Positions 53,476 to 57,165 of a DNA stretch of 64,000 nt are shown here, in pieces. Source of the stretch: Acidimicrobiales bacterium (GTDB lineage Bacteria > Actinomycetota > Acidimicrobiia > Acidimicrobiales > VFJN01). The position numbers were made by a program, and so were the translations under genes. Within the stretch, counting starts at the first letter, position 1; every line of letters begins with the position of its first letter. The DNA lies in assembly GCA_035265325.1 (NCBI GenBank), contig DATFOS010000177.1:14581-78580 (forward strand), written 5' to 3'. Under the pieces are notes generated by a model, which saw nothing but the letters and a program-made list of their open reading frames with translations, ran no database searches and was not told the origin of the DNA.

Positions 53476-53507
53476 CCGCCGCCCCCGGTCCCGCCCGGGG
53501 GCGGCGG
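53476..53507. terminator. perfect 13-bp GC stem-loop CCGCCGCCCCCGG-tcccgc-CCGGGGGCGGCGG between convergent units
   Basis: Read directly from the sequence. It lies between the sugar SBP stop (53440) and the stop of the 124-aa ORF (53546). Confidence 0.55.
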
Positions 53508-53545: not shown

Positions 53546-53920
53546 TCAGCTGAGGTCGTCGACCACGTCGGCGACGGTGTCGAGCCAGTTGTGGAGTTCG
53601 GTGGCGGTGGGGGCCAGGTCGTAGGCGTGGTGGTGGCAGGCGGTGGAGAGGGCCGCCCAGGCCTCGAAGGCCGCGGTCGCCACCTCGGTCGGGACGTAGC
53701 TGCGCAGGCACAGGAGCTGCGTGGTGAACGAGCCGGTGACGGCCTCGGGGACCTCGCGTTCCCAGAACCCGGCGATCGCCGCCTCCAGCGCCTGGCGGGC
53801 GAGGAGCGCCGTGCTGCGCGCCCACGCCGACCCGGGCAGGGCGTCCGGGCGGTCGAGGACCGTCCGGGCCGCGGCCACCAGGTCGGCCGGGGTCTCCAGC
53901 CCGGCCGCTGCGGCCGTCAC
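53546..53920 (-). CDS. 124-aa all-helical protein, stand-alone paralogue of the C-terminal domain of the upstream ABC ATPase (tentatively HEPN-like)
   Basis: The GTG at 53920 overlaps the ATPase stop (GTGA at 53917-53920). VTAAAAGLETPADLVAAARTVLDRPDALPGSAWARSTALLARQALEAAIAGFWEREVPEAVTGSFTTQLLCLRSYVPTEVATAAFEAWAALSTACHHHAYDLAPTATELHNWLDTVADVVDDLS. Normal composition. By hand alignment it resembles aa ~750-850 of the ATPase. Confidence 0.6.
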   Translation of the reverse strand: MTAAAAGLETPADLVAAARTVLDRPDALPGSAWARSTALLARQALEAAIAGFWEREVPEAVTGSFTTQLLCLRSYVPTEVATAAFEAWAALSTACHHHAYDLAPTATELHNWLDTVADVVDDLS

Positions 53921-56481
53921 CGGGACCCCAGGGCGGTGACGAGGGCGCTGGTGTCCGCCACGAGGTCGAGGGGGTCGCCGGGGCAGACGCCGTGGGCGCC
54001 CTGCTGCAGCTTCTTGAACGTGTCGCCGTGGACGCGATCGACCTCGTTGAGCGCCCGCATGACCTTGTCGGCCTCGTCGGCGGTGCCGAACAGCGCCAGC
54101 GCCGCCTTCGTGGTGAGGCGCTGCGCCGACGCCAGCGTCTCCTCGACCTCGTCGTGCCGGGCGCCGGCGTCGAGCAGGGCGCGCTGGGCCATCGAGGTCA
54201 ACGTGGCCTCCAATGCCAGGCGGCACAGGCCGGGGACGACCCGCCGGCGCACCTCGAGCGGCGTCCGCAGGCTCTTGGCCACGACCCGGGCGTCCCGGAG
54301 CGCCTGGGCGGCGGGGTCCGCGGCCGGGACGACCTCGACGACCGAGTCGCGCCGGCGCTGGACCTGGACGACCCGCGCCGCGATCCCGAGGCGACGGACG
54401 GCGGCGGGCAGCCGGTCGTCGTGGGTGAACACCACGACCTGGCGCGCCCGGGCCGCGCGGTCGAGCGCACGGGCGAGCCCGTCGACCTTGGCCGGGTCCA
54501 TGGCCTGGACCGGGTCGTCGATGACCACGAACCGGAACGGGCTCTCGGGCAGCATCGCCCGGGGCAGGAAGATGCTGAGGGCCAGGGCGTTCACCTCGCC
54601 CTGGCTCATGACGCCGAGGGCGTTGCCGTCGCTGCCGTCGACCTGGGCCGCCAGCTCGACCCGGCGCTGCGTGGCGCTGCCGGTGAGCCGCATGACGCCG
54701 AGCGAGACGTTGCTCTCGTGGCGGAGCAGGTGCCAGACCTCCTGCGCCTGCTCGGCGATCGGGCGGAGCCGGTCGTTGCGGATGTCGTCGTGGGCGGCCC
54801 GGAGCCAGGTGGCCGCCGCCTTGAGGTCCTTGACCAGCGGCTTGTCGGCCTCGACCGCCCGTGCCCGCACCACCCACGCCGCCACCTGCGCGGCCACCGG
54901 GGCCCAGCGGTCGTCGCGGGCGGCGAGCGCCTCGGCCGCCGCCTTGTGGACCGGGCCGACGAGCGCCGCCAGCCCGGCACCCGAGACCACGTGGTCCGCG
55001 AGCCGGCGCAGGTCGGCGGCCACCGCCCGGTCGGTGGCGGGCGGGCTGGCCCACGCCGCCCACGCCTCGACCAGCTCGCCCGTGGCGAGATCGTCGCCGG
55101 GCACGGCCGCCGAGCCGGCGAGCGCCTCGCGGGCCGGCGAGGCGGGGCGGGAGGCGGCGATGAGGGCCGCCGGGACCGGGCGGAGGGCGCCGATCGCGTC
55201 GGCCCGGGCGGCCCCGGCCTCCTTGTGGGCGCGGTCGGCCTCGTCGGACTCGGCCCGCAGCCGGCCGACCTCGCCGGCCGCCTGACCCTCCCACGCCGCG
55301 TCGAGGGCGCCGGACCGGCCGCACACCGGGCAGTCGGCCTCGTCGGGGTGGGCGGCGTGGTGGTCGAGCGCCCGGTCGAGCAGGTCGGCGAGCGCCCGGG
55401 CGCGGGCGGCGGACGTCCCGGCCACGGCGTCGAGCCCGGCGGCCGCGGCCCGCAACCGCTCGGCCGCGGCGACGAGGACGGGGACCGGCGGGGCGTCCAG
55501 CGCCGCCAGCTGGCGGAGGGTATCGAGCGACCCGCCCGGCGCCGGACCGGTCGCGCCCGTGACTACCTGCTCGACGGCGTCGAGGTCGGGCTGCCGGGTG
55601 GACAGGGCCCGGGCCACGGCGGCCGCCCGCTCCTCACCGGCGTCGCGGTCGAGGGCGCCGAGTGCGGCGGCCAGGCGCTTGCGCTCGGCGTCGACGTCCT
55701 TCGCCTCGGCCTCGCGGGACCGGCGCTCGCGGCCCAGCCGGTCCTGCGCCCCGACCAGCTCGTCCAGCCCGAGCACGGAGGCCAGCCGGTCGTACAGCCT
55801 GGTCGGGCTCGTACTGAGCACCGCGGCCAGCTCGGAGTGGGCCAGGAACGGCCGGTGGCTCACCAGGGCGTCGGCCCACCCGAGCCGGTCGAGGCCGGGG
55901 GCCCGCCGCTCCCCCGCGACCTGGACCGACACCTCGCCGTCCGCCAGGCCGGCGTCGTCGTCCCACCGGCGCTCGACGGTGGTGGTGCCGGCCGCGCCGG
56001 CCACGTGGAAGTCGGCGGCGACCCGGGCGCCGGTCGGGCGGTGGAGGTTGCGCCAGCCGTCCCGGAACACGGTCTGCTTCTCGAACCGGTCGGTCGTGCC
56101 CGTGAGCAGGACCTCGAGCGCGTCGGCGAAGCTCGACTTACCGGACCCGTTGCGCCCGACGACCACGGTGAGCCCGGCACCCGGCTCGAGCTCGAGCGTC
56201 GCCTCCGGGCCCACGCCCCGGAACCCGGCCACCGTGATCGACCGCAGGTAGGCACCCACCGGCGCCCCCGCGCCGGGCGCCCCGGGCGAGCCGGGCACTC
56301 CCGACGACCCGTCGGCGCGGTCGCCGGCCGCCGCGGCCGGGGCGGCGCGCCCGCCGGCCAGAGCCGCCGCCAGGGCGTCGTCGCCCCGGCAGGCCGCGAG
56401 GACCAGGTCGCGTGCCGCCTCGGCGAGTGTGCCGTCGCCGTCCACCCGACCGAGGACGACGTCCACCAAGGCATCATCCAT
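53917..56481 (-). CDS. SMC/Rad50/RloC-like ABC ATPase with long coiled-coil insert, CPVC hook-like motif and helical C-terminal domain (854 aa)
   Basis: Walker A GRNGSGKS (aa 109-116). A ~450-aa Ala/Arg/Glu/Leu-rich insert with CPVC at aa 384-387 (nt 55321-55332). Signature-like MSQGEVNAL (625-633), Walker B FVVIDDP (651-657), FTHD (685-688). C-terminal ~140 aa are helical, with CRLALE and RALNEVDRVHGDTFKKLQQGAHG. Confidence 0.85.
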   Translation of the reverse strand: MDDALVDVVLGRVDGDGTLAEAARDLVLAACRGDDALAAALAGGRAAPAAAAGDRADGSSGVPGSPGAPGAGAPVGAYLRSITVAGFRGVGPEATLELEPGAGLTVVVGRNGSGKSSFADALEVLLTGTTDRFEKQTVFRDGWRNLHRPTGARVAADFHVAGAAGTTTVERRWDDDAGLADGEVSVQVAGERRAPGLDRLGWADALVSHRPFLAHSELAAVLSTSPTRLYDRLASVLGLDELVGAQDRLGRERRSREAEAKDVDAERKRLAAALGALDRDAGEERAAAVARALSTRQPDLDAVEQVVTGATGPAPGGSLDTLRQLAALDAPPVPVLVAAAERLRAAAAGLDAVAGTSAARARALADLLDRALDHHAAHPDEADCPVCGRSGALDAAWEGQAAGEVGRLRAESDEADRAHKEAGAARADAIGALRPVPAALIAASRPASPAREALAGSAAVPGDDLATGELVEAWAAWASPPATDRAVAADLRRLADHVVSGAGLAALVGPVHKAAAEALAARDDRWAPVAAQVAAWVVRARAVEADKPLVKDLKAAATWLRAAHDDIRNDRLRPIAEQAQEVWHLLRHESNVSLGVMRLTGSATQRRVELAAQVDGSDGNALGVMSQGEVNALALSIFLPRAMLPESPFRFVVIDDPVQAMDPAKVDGLARALDRAARARQVVVFTHDDRLPAAVRRLGIAARVVQVQRRRDSVVEVVPAADPAAQALRDARVVAKSLRTPLEVRRRVVPGLCRLALEATLTSMAQRALLDAGARHDEVEETLASAQRLTTKAALALFGTADEADKVMRALNEVDRVHGDTFKKLQQGAHGVCPGDPLDLVADTSALVTALGSR

Positions 56482-56538: not shown

Positions 56539-57117
56539 CTATCCGGCCGCCGAACGCAGGCGGTCCAGCTGCGCCGACGACCCGAGGGCGATGAGCACGT
56601 CCCCCGGCGCGAGGATCGTCGCCGCCGGCGGGTTGACGTCGTAGGTGCCGTCGGCCCGCTTCATGGCGATGACGGCGGCCGTCGCCCCGCCGCCGTCGGC
56701 ACCGGTGACGGTCCGGAGCGACGCGCCGTCCGCCCCCGAGCCCGCCGCCACCAGGACCTCCTGGATGTCCACGTCGTGCTCCTCGGCGTGGATCACCTCG
56801 TCGAGGAACTCGGCCACGTGCGGGCGGAAGGCGATCGCCGCCATGCGGGCGCCGCCGATCTCGTAGGGGTTGACCACGTGGTCGGCTCCGGCGAGGCGGA
56901 ACTTGCGCTCGTTGCGCTGGTCGGCGACCCGGCAGACGATGACCAAGTCGGGGCGGAGGGACCGGGCCGTCAGCGCCAGCGCCAGGTTGTCGCTGTCGGT
57001 GGCGAGGGCGGCCACGAGGCTGCTCGCCCGGTGGATCCCGGCCGCCTCGAGCACCTGGCGCCTGCGCCGCCGCACCTCCACGAGGAACGGGGTTTTAGCA
57101 GCCTCGGGTGGGCCCAC
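56539..57117 (-). CDS. RCK/TrkA-family fragment: C-terminal half of TrkA-N plus TrkA-C; N-terminally truncated relative to the family (possible pseudogene remnant)
   Basis: 192 aa starting ...FLVEVRRRRRQVLEAAGIHRASSLVAALATDSDNLALALTARSLRPDLVIVCRVADQRNERKFRLAGADHVVNPYEIGG (the distal half of a TrkA-N Rossmann), then TrkA-C (IQEVLVAAGSGADGASL...ILAPGDVLIALG). No GxGxxG and no channel/TM part. The frame is closed by TAG 12 codons upstream of the GTG. Confidence 0.65.
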   Translation of the reverse strand: MGPPEAAKTPFLVEVRRRRRQVLEAAGIHRASSLVAALATDSDNLALALTARSLRPDLVIVCRVADQRNERKFRLAGADHVVNPYEIGGARMAAIAFRPHVAEFLDEVIHAEEHDVDIQEVLVAAGSGADGASLRTVTGADGGGATAAVIAMKRADGTYDVNPPAATILAPGDVLIALGSSAQLDRLRSAAG

Positions 57118-57165
57118 GGCCGTGGCGGCCGCACCGCCGCAGGGACGTCGCTACATTCCCGGCCG

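What the first reader, a model, noticed from the sequence alone, without database searches (positions are those of the whole stretch)
53546..56481. Two-gene module: Rad50/RloC-like zinc-hook ABC ATPase translationally coupled to a small free copy of its own C-terminal domain
Seen in sequence. An 854-aa ORF carries these elements in order:
- Walker A GRNGSGKS.
- A ~450-aa Ala/Arg/Glu/Leu-rich (coiled-coil-like) insert.
- Signature-like MSQGEVNAL, Walker B FVVIDDP and FTHD.
- A ~140-aa helical C-terminal domain.
Its stop overlaps (GTGA) the GTG start of a 124-aa helical ORF that resembles that C-terminal domain. A perfect 13-bp hairpin (53476-53507) closes the unit. There is no SbcD/Mre11 nuclease, no recN-type context and no kleisin partner. 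The neighbours are a sugar ABC operon and a truncated trkA fragment.

Established knowledge. An ABC ATPase with a coiled coil, a CxxC zinc hook and a C-terminal HEPN-type anticodon-nuclease domain is the RloC (PrrC-related) architecture. SMC-like ATPases with small partners recur in anti-phage systems (Lamassu, Wadjet, PARIS, ABC-three-component systems).

Inference. This is a conflict/defence or damage-sensing module. I cannot match its configuration (ATPase-effector fusion plus a free paralogue of the effector-like domain) to a named system.
Basis: partly seen in the sequence, partly recalled or inferred. Interest (0 to 1): 0.8.

Follow-up and report, generated by a model that had tools for sequence, protein, structure and literature searches.

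The report
RloC-like zinc-hook ATPase with HEPN partner
This is a strictly conserved, horizontally mobile two-gene module: a Rad50/RloC-like zinc-hook ATPase plus a small HEPN-fold protein carrying the same Arg-Glu-His motif. It is most likely an uncharacterised anti-phage or abortive-infection system rather than a DNA-repair gene.

Summary
An 854-aa ABC ATPase (53917-56481, minus strand) ends in a GTGA overlap with a 124-aa ORF (53546-53920). A perfect 13-bp hairpin follows.

The pair is a real unit:
- The small gene lies directly downstream in 81 of 82 related loci from at least seven phyla.
- A 4-nt start/stop overlap occurs in 63 of 81 loci.
- No third gene is conserved.

The ATPase has an invariant CPVCG zinc-hook motif in the middle of its insert. 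It passes no cut-off for Rad50, SbcC, RecN, RecF, SMC, MADS3 or Pfam AAA_13.

The small protein models confidently (pLDDT 93), and its best PDB matches are HEPN domains.

Both the small protein and the ATPase's all-helical C-terminal domain keep a near-invariant Arg-X3-Glu...His motif. This is the published catalytic-triad pattern of the RloC/PrrC anticodon nucleases. Deep profile comparison aligns the two domains end to end (probability 74.5%, E 2.7e-5). They are remote paralogues, not copies.

Elsewhere the module often lies beside DISARM, Shango, MADS, BREX, type I R-M and STAND genes, and on two Streptomyces plasmids. In this window the neighbours are housekeeping genes.

Best reading: a two-subunit RloC-like defence module. 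No function has been tested.

The parts
53917..56481 (-). 854-aa Rad50/RloC-like ABC ATPase with a long helical insert and a C-terminal helical domain (stop codon included)
   Evidence: ORF. Pfam SMC_N 53 bits over aa 78-694, plus AAA_21, AAA_23 and AAA_15. Nearest solved relatives are Rad50 and SMC heads, E about 1e-10. More than 200 full-length homologues at 45-68% identity.
56347..56481 (-). Conserved N-terminal extension (aa 1-45, MDDALxDxVLxRL...DLxLAAC.GD) ahead of a variable Pro/Gly/Ala linker (aa 46-75)
   Evidence: Conservation in the 114- and 29-sequence alignments. It supports the ATG at 56481 as the true start. Function unknown.
56134..56157 (-). Walker A, GRNGSGKS (aa 109-116)
   Evidence: Present in all 120 listed homologues; invariant in A3; coordinates checked.
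55321..55332 (-). CPVC zinc-hook motif (aa 384-387, context DCPVCGR) near the midpoint of the insert
   Evidence: A CxxC motif at this position in 119 of the 120 listed homologues (CPVC itself in 116; the exception is an 803-aa sequence that lacks it). C384, P385, V386 and C387 are invariant in A3. Zinc binding itself is not tested.
54496..54609 (-). ABC signature MSQGEVNAL (aa 625-633) and Walker B/D-loop FVVIDDPVQAMD (aa 651-662), with Asp at the catalytic-Glu position
   Evidence: Invariant S626, Q627, G628, E629, D655, D656, P657, Q659 and D662; coordinates checked.
54418..54429 (-). H-loop, FTHD (aa 685-688)
   Evidence: F685, H687 and D688 are invariant; coordinates checked.
53920..54336 (-). 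C-terminal all-helical domain (aa 716-854) with Arg754-X3-Glu758-X71-His830
   Evidence: AF2 pLDDT 93.8, 7 helices. R754 192/192, E758 191/192, H830 190/192. No convincing PDB fold match. Remote profile match to the small protein.
53546..53920 (-). 124-aa HEPN-fold partner protein. Its GTG start overlaps the ATPase stop (GTGA). Motifs are LLARQALE and LSxACHHHAY[DE]LxPTxxE, giving Arg42-X3-Glu46-X49-His96.
   Evidence: Translation. AF2 pLDDT 93.0. Foldseek top hits are HEPN proteins, probability 0.95-1.0, TM up to 0.70. R42 196/197, E46 197/197, H96 196/197. Directly downstream of the ATPase in 81/82 loci. 4-nt overlap in 63/81 loci.
53476..53507 (.). Perfect 13-bp GC-rich hairpin between the convergent small ORF and the sugar-binding-protein gene; a likely bidirectional terminator
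   Evidence: Inverted repeat, 100% complementary, 6-nt loop. No T-tract, so it is not called by the consensus terminator scan. Function inferred from position only.

Best explanation
This is a self-contained two-gene conflict module, most likely an anti-phage or abortive-infection system, built like the anticodon nuclease RloC but split into two subunits.

Shown here:
- The large protein is an ABC ATPase of the Rad50/SMC type. Its two head halves are separated by a roughly 450-aa helical insert with an invariant CPVCG hook motif in the middle.
- Behind the head sits an all-helical domain with invariant Arg754-X3-Glu758...His830.
- The downstream gene is translationally coupled. It encodes a 124-aa HEPN-fold protein with invariant Arg42-X3-Glu46-X49-His96.
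- The two helical domains are remote paralogues.

Inferred mechanism, by analogy with RloC, PrrC and other HEPN RNases that act as dimers:
1. Two ATPase chains pair through the zinc hook.
2. Each fused C-terminal domain binds one small subunit, forming a HEPN-like pseudo-dimer with a composite Arg/Glu/His site. This site is kept inactive in the resting complex.
3. When the heads sense foreign or broken DNA in an ATP-dependent way, the nuclease module is rearranged and switched on.
4. The active nuclease cuts tRNA or other RNA and stops translation in the infected cell.
For: Unit.
- The pair is adjacent and co-oriented in 81/82 loci. The single exception is cut by a contig end.
- A 4-nt ATGA/GTGA/TTGA overlap occurs in 63/81 loci.
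- The ATPase lies upstream of every small-gene homologue looked up.
- No third gene is conserved beyond genus-level synteny.

Sensor.
- Walker A, signature, Walker B and H-loop are invariant, and so is the CPVC motif.
- The closest solved relatives are Rad50 and SMC heads.

Effector.
- The small-protein model (pLDDT 93) matches HEPN structures: 1wol, 1ufb, 1o3u, 2q00, the sacsin HEPN domain and HepT (7bxo), with probability 0.95-1.0 and TM 0.5-0.7.
- The Arg-X3-Glu...His residues are essentially the only invariant polar residues of both domains.
- They fit the published RloC definition, Arg-X3-Glu-X36-52-His, whose three residues are each essential for RloC tRNase activity (PMC2610378).
- hhalign of deep alignments gives probability 74.5%, E 2.7e-5 and score 33.3. 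Thirty block-shuffle nulls reached at most 27.1, and the reversed template 11.0. The alignment superposes R42/R754, E46/E758 and H96/H830.
- The weak hits of each domain's HMM are heavily enriched for the other domain.
- A genuine Pfam AAA_13 protein (L089: 57 bits against a cut-off of 36, CPLC hook, R-X3-E-X51-H) is hit in its C-domain by the small-protein HMM, conditional E 3e-5.

Defence context and mobility.
- Neighbours include GmrSD, HipA, a STAND-TPR protein, a C5 methyltransferase and a transposase.
- Further neighbours are SngC (1e-267), mad3/mad8, PDC-S37/Hhe and DrmD. Type I methyltransferases, BrxC, PIN and SLFN-type helicases occur among the 137 nearest neighbours of 28 loci.
- Two Streptomyces plasmids, one of them conjugative, carry the pair beside NB-ARC/TPR genes and a large helicase.
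- The pair occurs in seven or more phyla but in few species.
- The closest relatives carry it at other chromosomal sites.
Against: - No experiment exists for any member.
- The fused C-terminal domain has no convincing HEPN fold match (best Foldseek probability below 0.3). Its Glu-to-His spacing of 71 lies outside the RloC range.
- The canonical HEPN Rx4-6H arginine is not conserved in the small protein: Arg occupies position 93 in 78/197 sequences.
- Profile links to the AAA_13 (RloC-type) C-domain are borderline. The small protein gives P 0.002 and score 23.1 against a null maximum of 21.6. The C-domain gives P 0.006 and score 21.0 against a null maximum of 22.5.
- The ATPase fails the AAA_13 gathering score, 24.6 against 36.
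- Neither protein hits any PADLOC effector model. The small ORF has no hit in Pfam, NCBIfam, PADLOC or PHROGs.
- In this window the neighbours are housekeeping genes and the composition is host-like.
- The heterodimer and the DNA trigger are inferred. No complex was modelled.
Confidence: 0.55

Rival explanations
1. Same module, different role for the small protein. It acts as an antitoxin-like inhibitor or decoy. By pairing with the fused C-terminal domain it blocks the homodimerisation that would form an active nuclease. It is displaced or degraded on infection, in the manner of RnlA-RnlB or of type II toxin-antitoxin logic.
For: - Tight translational coupling and strict co-occurrence are what a toxin-neutraliser pair would show.
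- The two domains are remote paralogues, so heterodimerisation that competes with homodimerisation is plausible.
- HEPN RNases are commonly controlled through their dimer state. This is established knowledge, for example for RnlA (PMC8266594, listed).
Against: - A pure inhibitor would not need near-perfect conservation of Arg42, Glu46 and His96 plus the long LSxACHHHAY[DE]LxPTxxE motif across 197 diverse sequences.
- The small gene lies downstream of the larger gene, whereas antitoxins usually come first.
- No orphan copies were seen.
Confidence: 0.2
2. The two helical domains are non-catalytic binding modules for nucleic acid or protein. The complex acts on DNA itself, by tethering, end-binding or recruiting a nuclease in trans, like Wadjet, Lamassu or SbcCD. 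It does not act as an RNase.
For: - The canonical Rx4-6H arginine is missing.
- The C-domain has no HEPN fold match.
- HEPN families without the motif are proposed to be binding domains (PMC3710099).
- The best PADLOC matches of the heads are mad3 and LmuB.
- LmuB often carries a CPxCG hook (PMC10586767).
Against: - Arg, Glu and His are invariant in both domains, which is not expected of a mere scaffold.
- HEPN families with 'H conserved, R lacking' are thought to use alternative basic residues.
- No LmuA- or LmuC-like gene, and no other nuclease gene, is conserved next to the pair.
- The small ORF hits no PADLOC model. There is no Pfam DUF3732 hit.
Confidence: 0.13
3. It is a housekeeping DNA double-strand-break repair or chromosome-maintenance ATPase, an SbcC/RecN/RecF-type paralogue, with a small accessory subunit.
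For: - RefSeq attaches the GO term 'double-strand break repair' to plasmid homologues.
- The heads resemble Rad50 and SMC.
- JGI auto-names homologues RecF or SbcC.
- In this window the neighbours are housekeeping genes.
Against: - All NCBIfam repair models fall far below cut-off: recN 13.9 against 407, recF 24 against 172, Rad50 18.7 against 454.
- No SbcD/Mre11 gene is nearby.
- The distribution is patchy, the pair occurs on plasmids, and it sits at variable sites among defence genes.
Confidence: 0.07

Closest known systems
RloC (Rad50-like anticodon nuclease; Davidov and Kaufmann 2008, PMC2610378) and its Pfam family AAA_13 (PF13166)
   Same: - ABC ATPase head split by a helical insert with a central CX2C hook.
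- Size within the RloC range of 658-897 aa.
- Walker B of the hhhhDDP type.
- A helical C-region with an Arg-X3-Glu...His motif.
- Patchy distribution and occasional linkage to R-M loci.

   Different: - RloC is a single polypeptide. This family always has a second, free HEPN-fold subunit carrying the same motif.
- The Glu-to-His spacing in the fused domain is 71, not 36-52. Only the free subunit, at 49, fits the range.
- The ATPase fails the PF13166 gathering score, 24.6 against 36.
- The profile link between the C-domains is borderline.
HEPN superfamily, especially HepT/DUF86 toxins and the 'H conserved, R lacking' families (PaREP1/8, PDB 2q00; Anantharaman et al. 2013, PMC3710099)
   Same: - The small protein's model matches HEPN folds. 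The best TM is 0.70 to 2q00, and it also matches HepT (7bxo).
- The H98-x-Y100 pattern recalls the DUF86 H-x-Y pattern (from memory).
- UniRef labels one member as DUF86.
- Two members give weak DUF4145 hits.
   Different: - There is no conserved Rx4-6H arginine.
- There is no minimal-nucleotidyltransferase partner.
- The partner is instead a zinc-hook ABC ATPase.
- No Pfam HEPN-clan model reaches significance.
Lamassu / ABC-3C (LmuB with LmuA and LmuC)
   Same: - A Rad50-like coiled-coil ABC ATPase with a CPxCG-type hook acts as the presumed DNA sensor.
- The catalytic Glu of Walker B is replaced.
- The system occurs in defence islands.

   Different: - LmuB ends at the H-loop: the PADLOC LmuB profiles end where our C-domain begins.
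- No LmuA effector or LmuC gene is present.
- The small ORF hits no PADLOC model.
- The genes are ordered ATPase then small gene, and there are only two of them.
Rad50-Mre11 / SbcCD
   Same: The head architecture and the CPVCGR hook motif. The hook hexapeptide matches that of archaeal Rad50 as I recall it.
   Different: - No Mre11/SbcD nuclease gene is present.
- There is an extra C-terminal domain and a HEPN-fold partner.
- Scores fall far below the family cut-offs.
- The module is accessory, not core.
PADLOC candidate PDC-S06 (single-gene ABC ATPase of about 850 aa)
   Same: The profiles are of nearly the same length. The signature/Walker B region matches at nearly the same coordinates: aa 617-688 against positions 614-685 of 858.
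   Different: - Only the head motifs match.
- PDC-S06 is scored as a single-gene candidate.
- Its identity and function could not be resolved from the papers held.

Membership tests
RloC (as defined in PMC2610378) | ABC ATPase motifs: Walker A, signature, Walker B/D-loop and linchpin His | tested here: met
   GRNGSGKS, MSQGE, FVVIDDPVQAMD and FTHD are all invariant in the family.
RloC (as defined in PMC2610378) | Helical insert that splits the ATPase head, with a central CX2C zinc-hook motif | tested here: met
   The SMC_N match spans aa 78-694. A CxxC motif at aa 384-387 in 119 of the 120 listed homologues (CPVC in 116), and invariant in A3. Coiled-coil geometry and zinc binding were not computed.
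RloC (as defined in PMC2610378) | C-proximal Arg-X3-Glu-X36-52-His catalytic triad on the same polypeptide | tested here: inconclusive
   The fused domain has R754-X3-E758-X71-H830, with the residues invariant but the spacing out of range. The separate small protein has R42-X3-E46-X49-H96, which is in range.
RloC / PrrC Pfam family AAA_13 (PF13166) | Score at or above the gathering threshold of 36 bits | tested here: not met
   24.6 bits, over aa 620-688 only. A control protein from L089 scores 57 bits.
RloC / PrrC | Anticodon-loop tRNA cleavage activity | not testable with these tools
   This needs biochemistry or tRNA sequencing.
HEPN superfamily (small protein) | HEPN-type helical bundle fold | tested here: met
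   AF2 pLDDT 93. The Foldseek top hits are HEPN proteins with probability 0.95-1.0 and TM 0.5-0.70, although E is only 0.1-0.5.
HEPN superfamily (small protein) | Conserved Rx4-6H motif | tested here: not met
   His96 and His98 are conserved, but Arg at position 93 occurs in only 78/197 sequences. Published HEPN families with 'H conserved, R lacking' do exist.
HEPN superfamily (ATPase C-terminal domain) | HEPN-type fold or profile match | tested here: inconclusive
   Foldseek gives no convincing hit (probability below 0.3). The link is only indirect, through the small protein (hhalign 74.5%).
Rad50/SbcC | Family model above cut-off and an adjacent Mre11/SbcD nuclease gene | tested here: not met
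   rad50 18.7 bits against 453.75; PRK03918 18 against 700. No such neighbour in the window, and none among the 25 families listed for the 137 nearest neighbours.
RecN / RecF / SMC | NCBIfam equivalog cut-off | tested here: not met
   recN 13.9 against 407.85; recF 24.2 against 172; SMC 22.3 against 729.
Lamassu (LmuB with LmuA/LmuC) | LmuB-type ATPase together with LmuA effector and LmuC genes | tested here: not met
   LmuB profiles match only the head motifs (E 1e-17). No DUF3732 hit. The small ORF hits no PADLOC model. No third conserved gene.
MADS (mad3 ATPase) | NCBIfam antiphage_MADS3 cut-off of 420 bits | tested here: not met
   22.2 bits. The PADLOC mad3 hit at 2e-20 covers the heads only.
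HEPN-MNT type II toxin-antitoxin | Adjacent minimal nucleotidyltransferase antitoxin | tested here: not met
   The conserved partner is the ABC ATPase in 81/82 loci. No nucleotidyltransferase gene is conserved alongside.

The most novel reading that the evidence does not exclude
This is a previously unnamed, widespread defence family in which a HEPN-type nuclease is split into two diverged paralogues. One is fused to a Rad50-like zinc-hook DNA sensor and the other is free. Together they build a single asymmetric Arg/Glu/His active site. Nuclease activity is therefore gated by ATP- and DNA-dependent rearrangement of a heterodimer rather than of a homodimer. This would be a bacterial two-chain analogue of the HEPN1/HEPN2 arrangement of Cas13, coupled to DNA-damage or foreign-DNA sensing.
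Probability: 0.3. Interest if true: 0.75.

Novelty: new variant of a known kind. Interest (0 to 1): 0.62.

Why it matters
If confirmed, this would add a compact two-gene system to the ABC-ATPase defence repertoire, which already includes RloC/PrrC, PARIS, Gabija, Septu and Lamassu. It is common in groups whose immune systems are poorly explored: Actinomycetota, Acidobacteriota, Chloroflexota and Dormibacterota.

It would also give a natural experiment on how HEPN nucleases are controlled. The same catalytic motif sits on a sensor-fused domain and on a free paralogue. Mutating each separately would show whether the active site is composite.

It would further help to explain how Rad50-like zinc-hook sensors are coupled to RNA-targeting effectors. 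That question has remained open for RloC since 2008.

For annotation, several hundred 'AAA family ATPase / double-strand break repair' and 'hypothetical protein' pairs could be relabelled.

Tried and rejected
- BLASTP of the small ORF against the ATPase found nothing meaningful.
- The first shallow profile comparisons were weak: probability 2-14%. Only deeper alignments gave 74.5%.
- Pfam, NCBIfam, PADLOC and PHROGs found nothing for the small ORF. Scanning 36 family members individually gave only two weak DUF4145 hits.
- Profile searches of PDB sequences with the small protein and with the C-domain found nothing.
- Foldseek of the C-domain model found no credible match.
- A search for a third conserved gene found only genus-level (Nocardia) synteny.
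- IMG/VR viral contigs hold no orthologue, only partial head matches. One of those matches (L089) turned out to be a useful AAA_13 control.
- A context look-up for the window's own protein found no record.
- The Krishnan et al. 2020 ABC-ATPase classification (doi 10.1093/nar/gkaa726, PMC7544218) is not held. I could therefore not check whether this clade is already described there.
- The six validated Streptomyces systems of bioRxiv 10.1101/2025.01.08.631966 do not include this architecture.
- Rejected on curated cut-offs and missing partners: SbcCD, RecN, RecF, SMC, Lamassu, MADS and HEPN-MNT membership.
- Model coordinates are not exposed, so I could neither superpose the two domain models nor check whether Arg, Glu and His cluster in space.
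- The coiled-coil propensity of the insert was not computed.

Full report
**1. What is in the sequence**

On the minus strand, an 854-aa ORF (53917-56481) is followed by a 124-aa ORF (53546-53920). The GTG start of the second ORF overlaps the TGA stop of the first as GTGA.

- Walker A, GRNGSGKS, aa 109-116.
- CPVC, aa 384-387.
- Signature, MSQGEVNAL, aa 625-633.
- Walker B/D-loop, FVVIDDPVQAMD, aa 651-662.
- H-loop, FTHD, aa 685-688.

A perfect 13-bp inverted repeat with a 6-nt loop lies at 53476-53507. It sits between the small ORF and the convergent sugar-binding-protein gene. It has no T-tract and is not called by the terminator scan.

The neighbours are as described:
- Downstream: a ROK regulator and a sugar ABC operon (ATPase, permease, binding protein).
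- Upstream: a TrkA remnant covering only TrkA_N positions 51-116 plus TrkA_C, with no room for the missing part.
- Further upstream: PNPOx, YjbR and PaaX-like genes.

The window comes from an Acidimicrobiales metagenome-assembled genome. An NCBI protein from such a genome is 100% identical. The module has the same very high GC3 as the rest of the window.

**2. The pair is a conserved unit**

The ATPase has more than 200 full-length homologues of about 815-830 aa at 45-68% identity. A scan of one genome per species found at least 212 species with a relative. The 80 best loci come from these groups:
- Actinomycetota, including Streptomyces, Nocardia, Micromonospora, Kribbella, Mycolicibacterium, Pseudonocardia and Nocardioides.
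- Acidobacteriota.
- Gemmatimonadota.
- Chloroflexota.
- Dormibacterota.
- Myxococcota.
- Pseudomonadota.

A homologue of the small ORF lies directly downstream on the same strand in 81 of 82 loci. The one exception is cut by the contig end about 100 bp after the ATPase.

In 63 of 81 loci the two genes share a 4-nt ATGA, GTGA or TTGA overlap. Most of the others have short overlaps or gaps.

Starting from the small gene gives the same answer. Three distant and two close homologues all have an ATPase of 801-852 aa just upstream.

An exhaustive profile search finds 1339 50%-identity cluster representatives of the small protein. All of the 150 best are stand-alone proteins, 149 of them 100-165 aa and one of 229 aa.

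No third gene is conserved. The largest neighbour clusters, of at most 15 loci, reflect synteny within Nocardia.

**3. The ATPase**

Pfam gives only generic ABC and SMC-head families. The SMC_N match runs from aa 78 to aa 694 in one stretch, so the head is split by the insert.

All curated NCBIfam models are far below their cut-offs:
- recN 13.9 against 408.
- recF 24 against 172.
- rad50 18.7 against 454.
- SMC 22 against 729.
- MADS3 22 against 420.

The best PADLOC matches (mad3 2e-20, LmuB 1e-17, PDC-S06, HEC-01A) cover only the head motifs. The closest solved relatives by sequence are Rad50 and SMC heads, at E about 1e-10.

A CxxC motif at this position is present in 119 of the 120 listed homologues, as CPVC itself in 116. 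The motif is invariant in a 29-sequence alignment, in the context G-D-C-P-V-C-G-R. It lies near the midpoint of the insert (aa ~215-590), as a zinc hook should.

Walker B is hhhhDD, with both Asp residues invariant. An Asp therefore stands at the catalytic-Glu position. I read this as competent ATP binding with possibly slow hydrolysis. That is an inference.

The first 45 residues form a conserved extension of unknown role.

**4. The two helical domains**

The small protein gives a confident AlphaFold2 model: pLDDT 93, pTM 0.86. Its best PDB matches are HEPN proteins: 1wol, 1ufb, 1o3u, 2q00, the sacsin HEPN domain, HepT 7bxo/6m6u and 3mfn. Their Foldseek probabilities are 0.95-1.0 and TM reaches 0.70, although E-values are only 0.1-0.5.

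The ATPase C-terminal domain (aa 716-854) also models confidently as seven helices: pLDDT 93.8. It has no convincing PDB match.

The conservation pattern is the informative part.
- Across 197 small proteins: R42 196/197, E46 197/197, H96 196/197, plus the motif LSxACHHHAY[DE]LxPTxxE.
- Across 192 C-terminal domains: R754 192/192, E758 191/192, H830 190/192.

Both domains therefore carry Arg-X3-Glu...His on equivalent elements. Arg and Glu lie on the long second helix, and His lies just after the penultimate helix.

With deep alignments, hhalign aligns the two domains end to end over 109 columns: probability 74.5%, E 2.7e-5, score 33.3. R42/R754, E46/E758 and H96/H830 are superposed. Controls scored 11.0 for the reversed template and 11.2-27.1 for 30 block shuffles.

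Plain HMMER supports the link from both directions. The sub-threshold hits of the small-protein model are enriched for ATPase C-termini. The sub-threshold hits of the C-domain model are enriched for the small ORFs.

In degree it is a remote paralogy of 18% identity, invisible to BLASTP.

**5. Relation to RloC**

Davidov and Kaufmann defined RloC by these features (PMC2610378):
- PrrC-like ABC motifs.
- A Rad50-like insert with a central CX2C.
- A C-proximal Arg-X3-Glu-X36-52-His motif.
- A size of 658-897 aa.

Each of the three triad residues is essential for its tRNase activity and toxicity.

The present ATPase meets the first two features. Its fused domain has the triad with a longer spacer (X71). 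The free subunit has it with X49, inside the published range.

A true Pfam AAA_13 protein found by chance on a viral contig served as a control. L089 scores 57 bits against a cut-off of 36, has a CPLC hook and a DDP Walker B, and carries R-X3-E-X51-H. The small-protein HMM matches its C-domain with conditional E 3e-5. That alignment also matches S-x5-H and P-T-x-x-E-L.

Profile-profile scores against the C-domain of 115 such proteins are only borderline:
- Small protein: P 0.002, score 23.1, null maximum 21.6.
- Fused domain: P 0.006, score 21.0, null maximum 22.5.

The ATPase itself fails the AAA_13 threshold, 24.6 bits.

My conclusion is that the module works like RloC and may share ancestry with it. 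It is not a member of the RloC/PrrC sequence family, and it differs in always having a second subunit. L089 has no such partner.

The canonical HEPN Rx4-6H arginine is not conserved in the small protein: Arg at position 93 in 40% of sequences. Published HEPN families with 'H conserved, R lacking', such as PaREP1/8 (PDB 2q00, the best TM match here), are thought to use other basic residues (PMC3710099).

**6. Why defence rather than repair**

In this window the context is housekeeping. Elsewhere the pair often lies among defence and mobile genes:
- GmrSD, HipA and a helicase/PLD gene.
- HipA.
- A STAND-TPR protein, ScoMcrA_N, a C5 methyltransferase, a transposase and a HATPase_c_3 protein.
- Shango SngC at 1e-267, MADS mad3/mad8, PDC-S37/Hhe, and DISARM DrmD with PDC-S37 on the other side.
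- Among the 137 nearest neighbours of 28 diverse loci: type I methyltransferases (3), PIN (3), SLFN-type helicases (2), integrases (2) and BrxC (1).

Two Streptomyces plasmids, one of them conjugative, carry the pair next to NB-ARC/TPR, DUF6119 and a helicase of about 1185 aa.

The closest relatives of the window's module (65-70% identity) lie at a different site, next to an AlkA-like gene.

No orthologue is found on IMG/VR viral contigs or in PHROGs. The module therefore seems to travel with islands and plasmids rather than with phages.

**7. Mechanism**

Shown:
- An obligate, translationally coupled pair.
- An intact nucleotide-binding site.
- An invariant hook motif.
- A HEPN-fold partner.
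- The same invariant Arg/Glu/His pattern on both helical domains.

Inferred, from what is known of Rad50, RloC (zinc-hook- and DNA-dependent regulation of its ATPase and nuclease; PMC3458546 and PMC3874168, listed) and dimeric HEPN RNases:
1. The ATPase dimerises through the hook.
2. Each C-terminal domain pairs with one small subunit to form an asymmetric HEPN-like nuclease module, which is held inactive.
3. DNA ends or foreign DNA sensed by the ATP-bound heads trigger a rearrangement that activates RNA cleavage, probably of tRNA.
4. Translation arrest follows.

Confidence by level:
- About 0.7 that this is a conflict module.
- About 0.45 that it is a nuclease using these residues.
- About 0.3 that the target is tRNA.

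Rivals:
- The small protein is an inhibitor or decoy.
- The helical domains are non-catalytic binding modules and the complex acts on DNA.
- The pair has a housekeeping repair role.

**8. Novelty and limits**

I found no named system with this configuration in PADLOC 2.0, NCBIfam 20, Pfam or the papers held. The Krishnan et al. 2020 survey of ABC ATPases could not be read, so prior description there cannot be excluded.

I file the module as a new variant of a known kind: RloC-like ABC-ATPase/HEPN systems.

The main gaps are:
- No complex model.
- No structural superposition of the two domains.
- No coiled-coil calculation.
- No experiment.

Noticed in passing
window 56539-57117 (-): A truncated TrkA-like gene. 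Only TrkA_N model positions 51-116 and TrkA_C are present. The open frame begins at 57150, so the Rossmann N-terminal half is missing. It ends 57 bp upstream of the ATPase start. The closest homologues of the module lie at a different genomic site, so a rearrangement or insertion at this spot is plausible.
   Followed up: partly
window 56347-56481 (-), ATPase aa 1-45: A conserved N-terminal extension (MDDALLDxVLxRL...DLLLAAC.GD) followed by a variable Pro/Gly/Ala-rich linker (aa 46-75), ahead of the ABC head. Its function is unknown. The AAA_13 control protein in L089 also has an N-terminal extension.
   Followed up: no
window 54514-54531 (-), and L089:3652-6246: Walker B is hhhhDD in both this family and the AAA_13 family. 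Both Asp residues are invariant, so an Asp sits where ABC ATPases normally have the catalytic Glu. This suggests slow or regulated hydrolysis.
   Followed up: partly
L002:5670-7349 and L114:1800-3563: A GAF-SpoIIE (PP2C phosphatase) gene lies immediately upstream of the module in two loci. In L114 it overlaps the ATPase start by 4 nt. It could be an occasional regulatory add-on or just lineage synteny.
   Followed up: no
L089:3652-6246 (IMG/VR contig IMGVR_UViG_3300044537_000424): An 865-aa AAA_13 (RloC-type) protein with a CPLC hook and R-X3-E-X51-H lies on a contig classed as viral. Its family of about 860-880 aa has more than 270 relatives. It has no small HEPN partner.
   Followed up: partly
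L071:2114-5728 and L071:10331-14218 (Mycolicibacterium sp. P9-22): Here the module sits between a DISARM DrmD-like helicase and a PDC-S37/Hhe-like helicase-nuclease. This is a dense defence island that may hold further unannotated systems.
   Followed up: no
window 53476-53507: A GC-only 13-bp perfect hairpin without a T-tract lies between convergent genes. This fits the T-tract-less terminators common in high-GC Actinomycetota, and the consensus terminator scan does not pick it up.
   Followed up: partly
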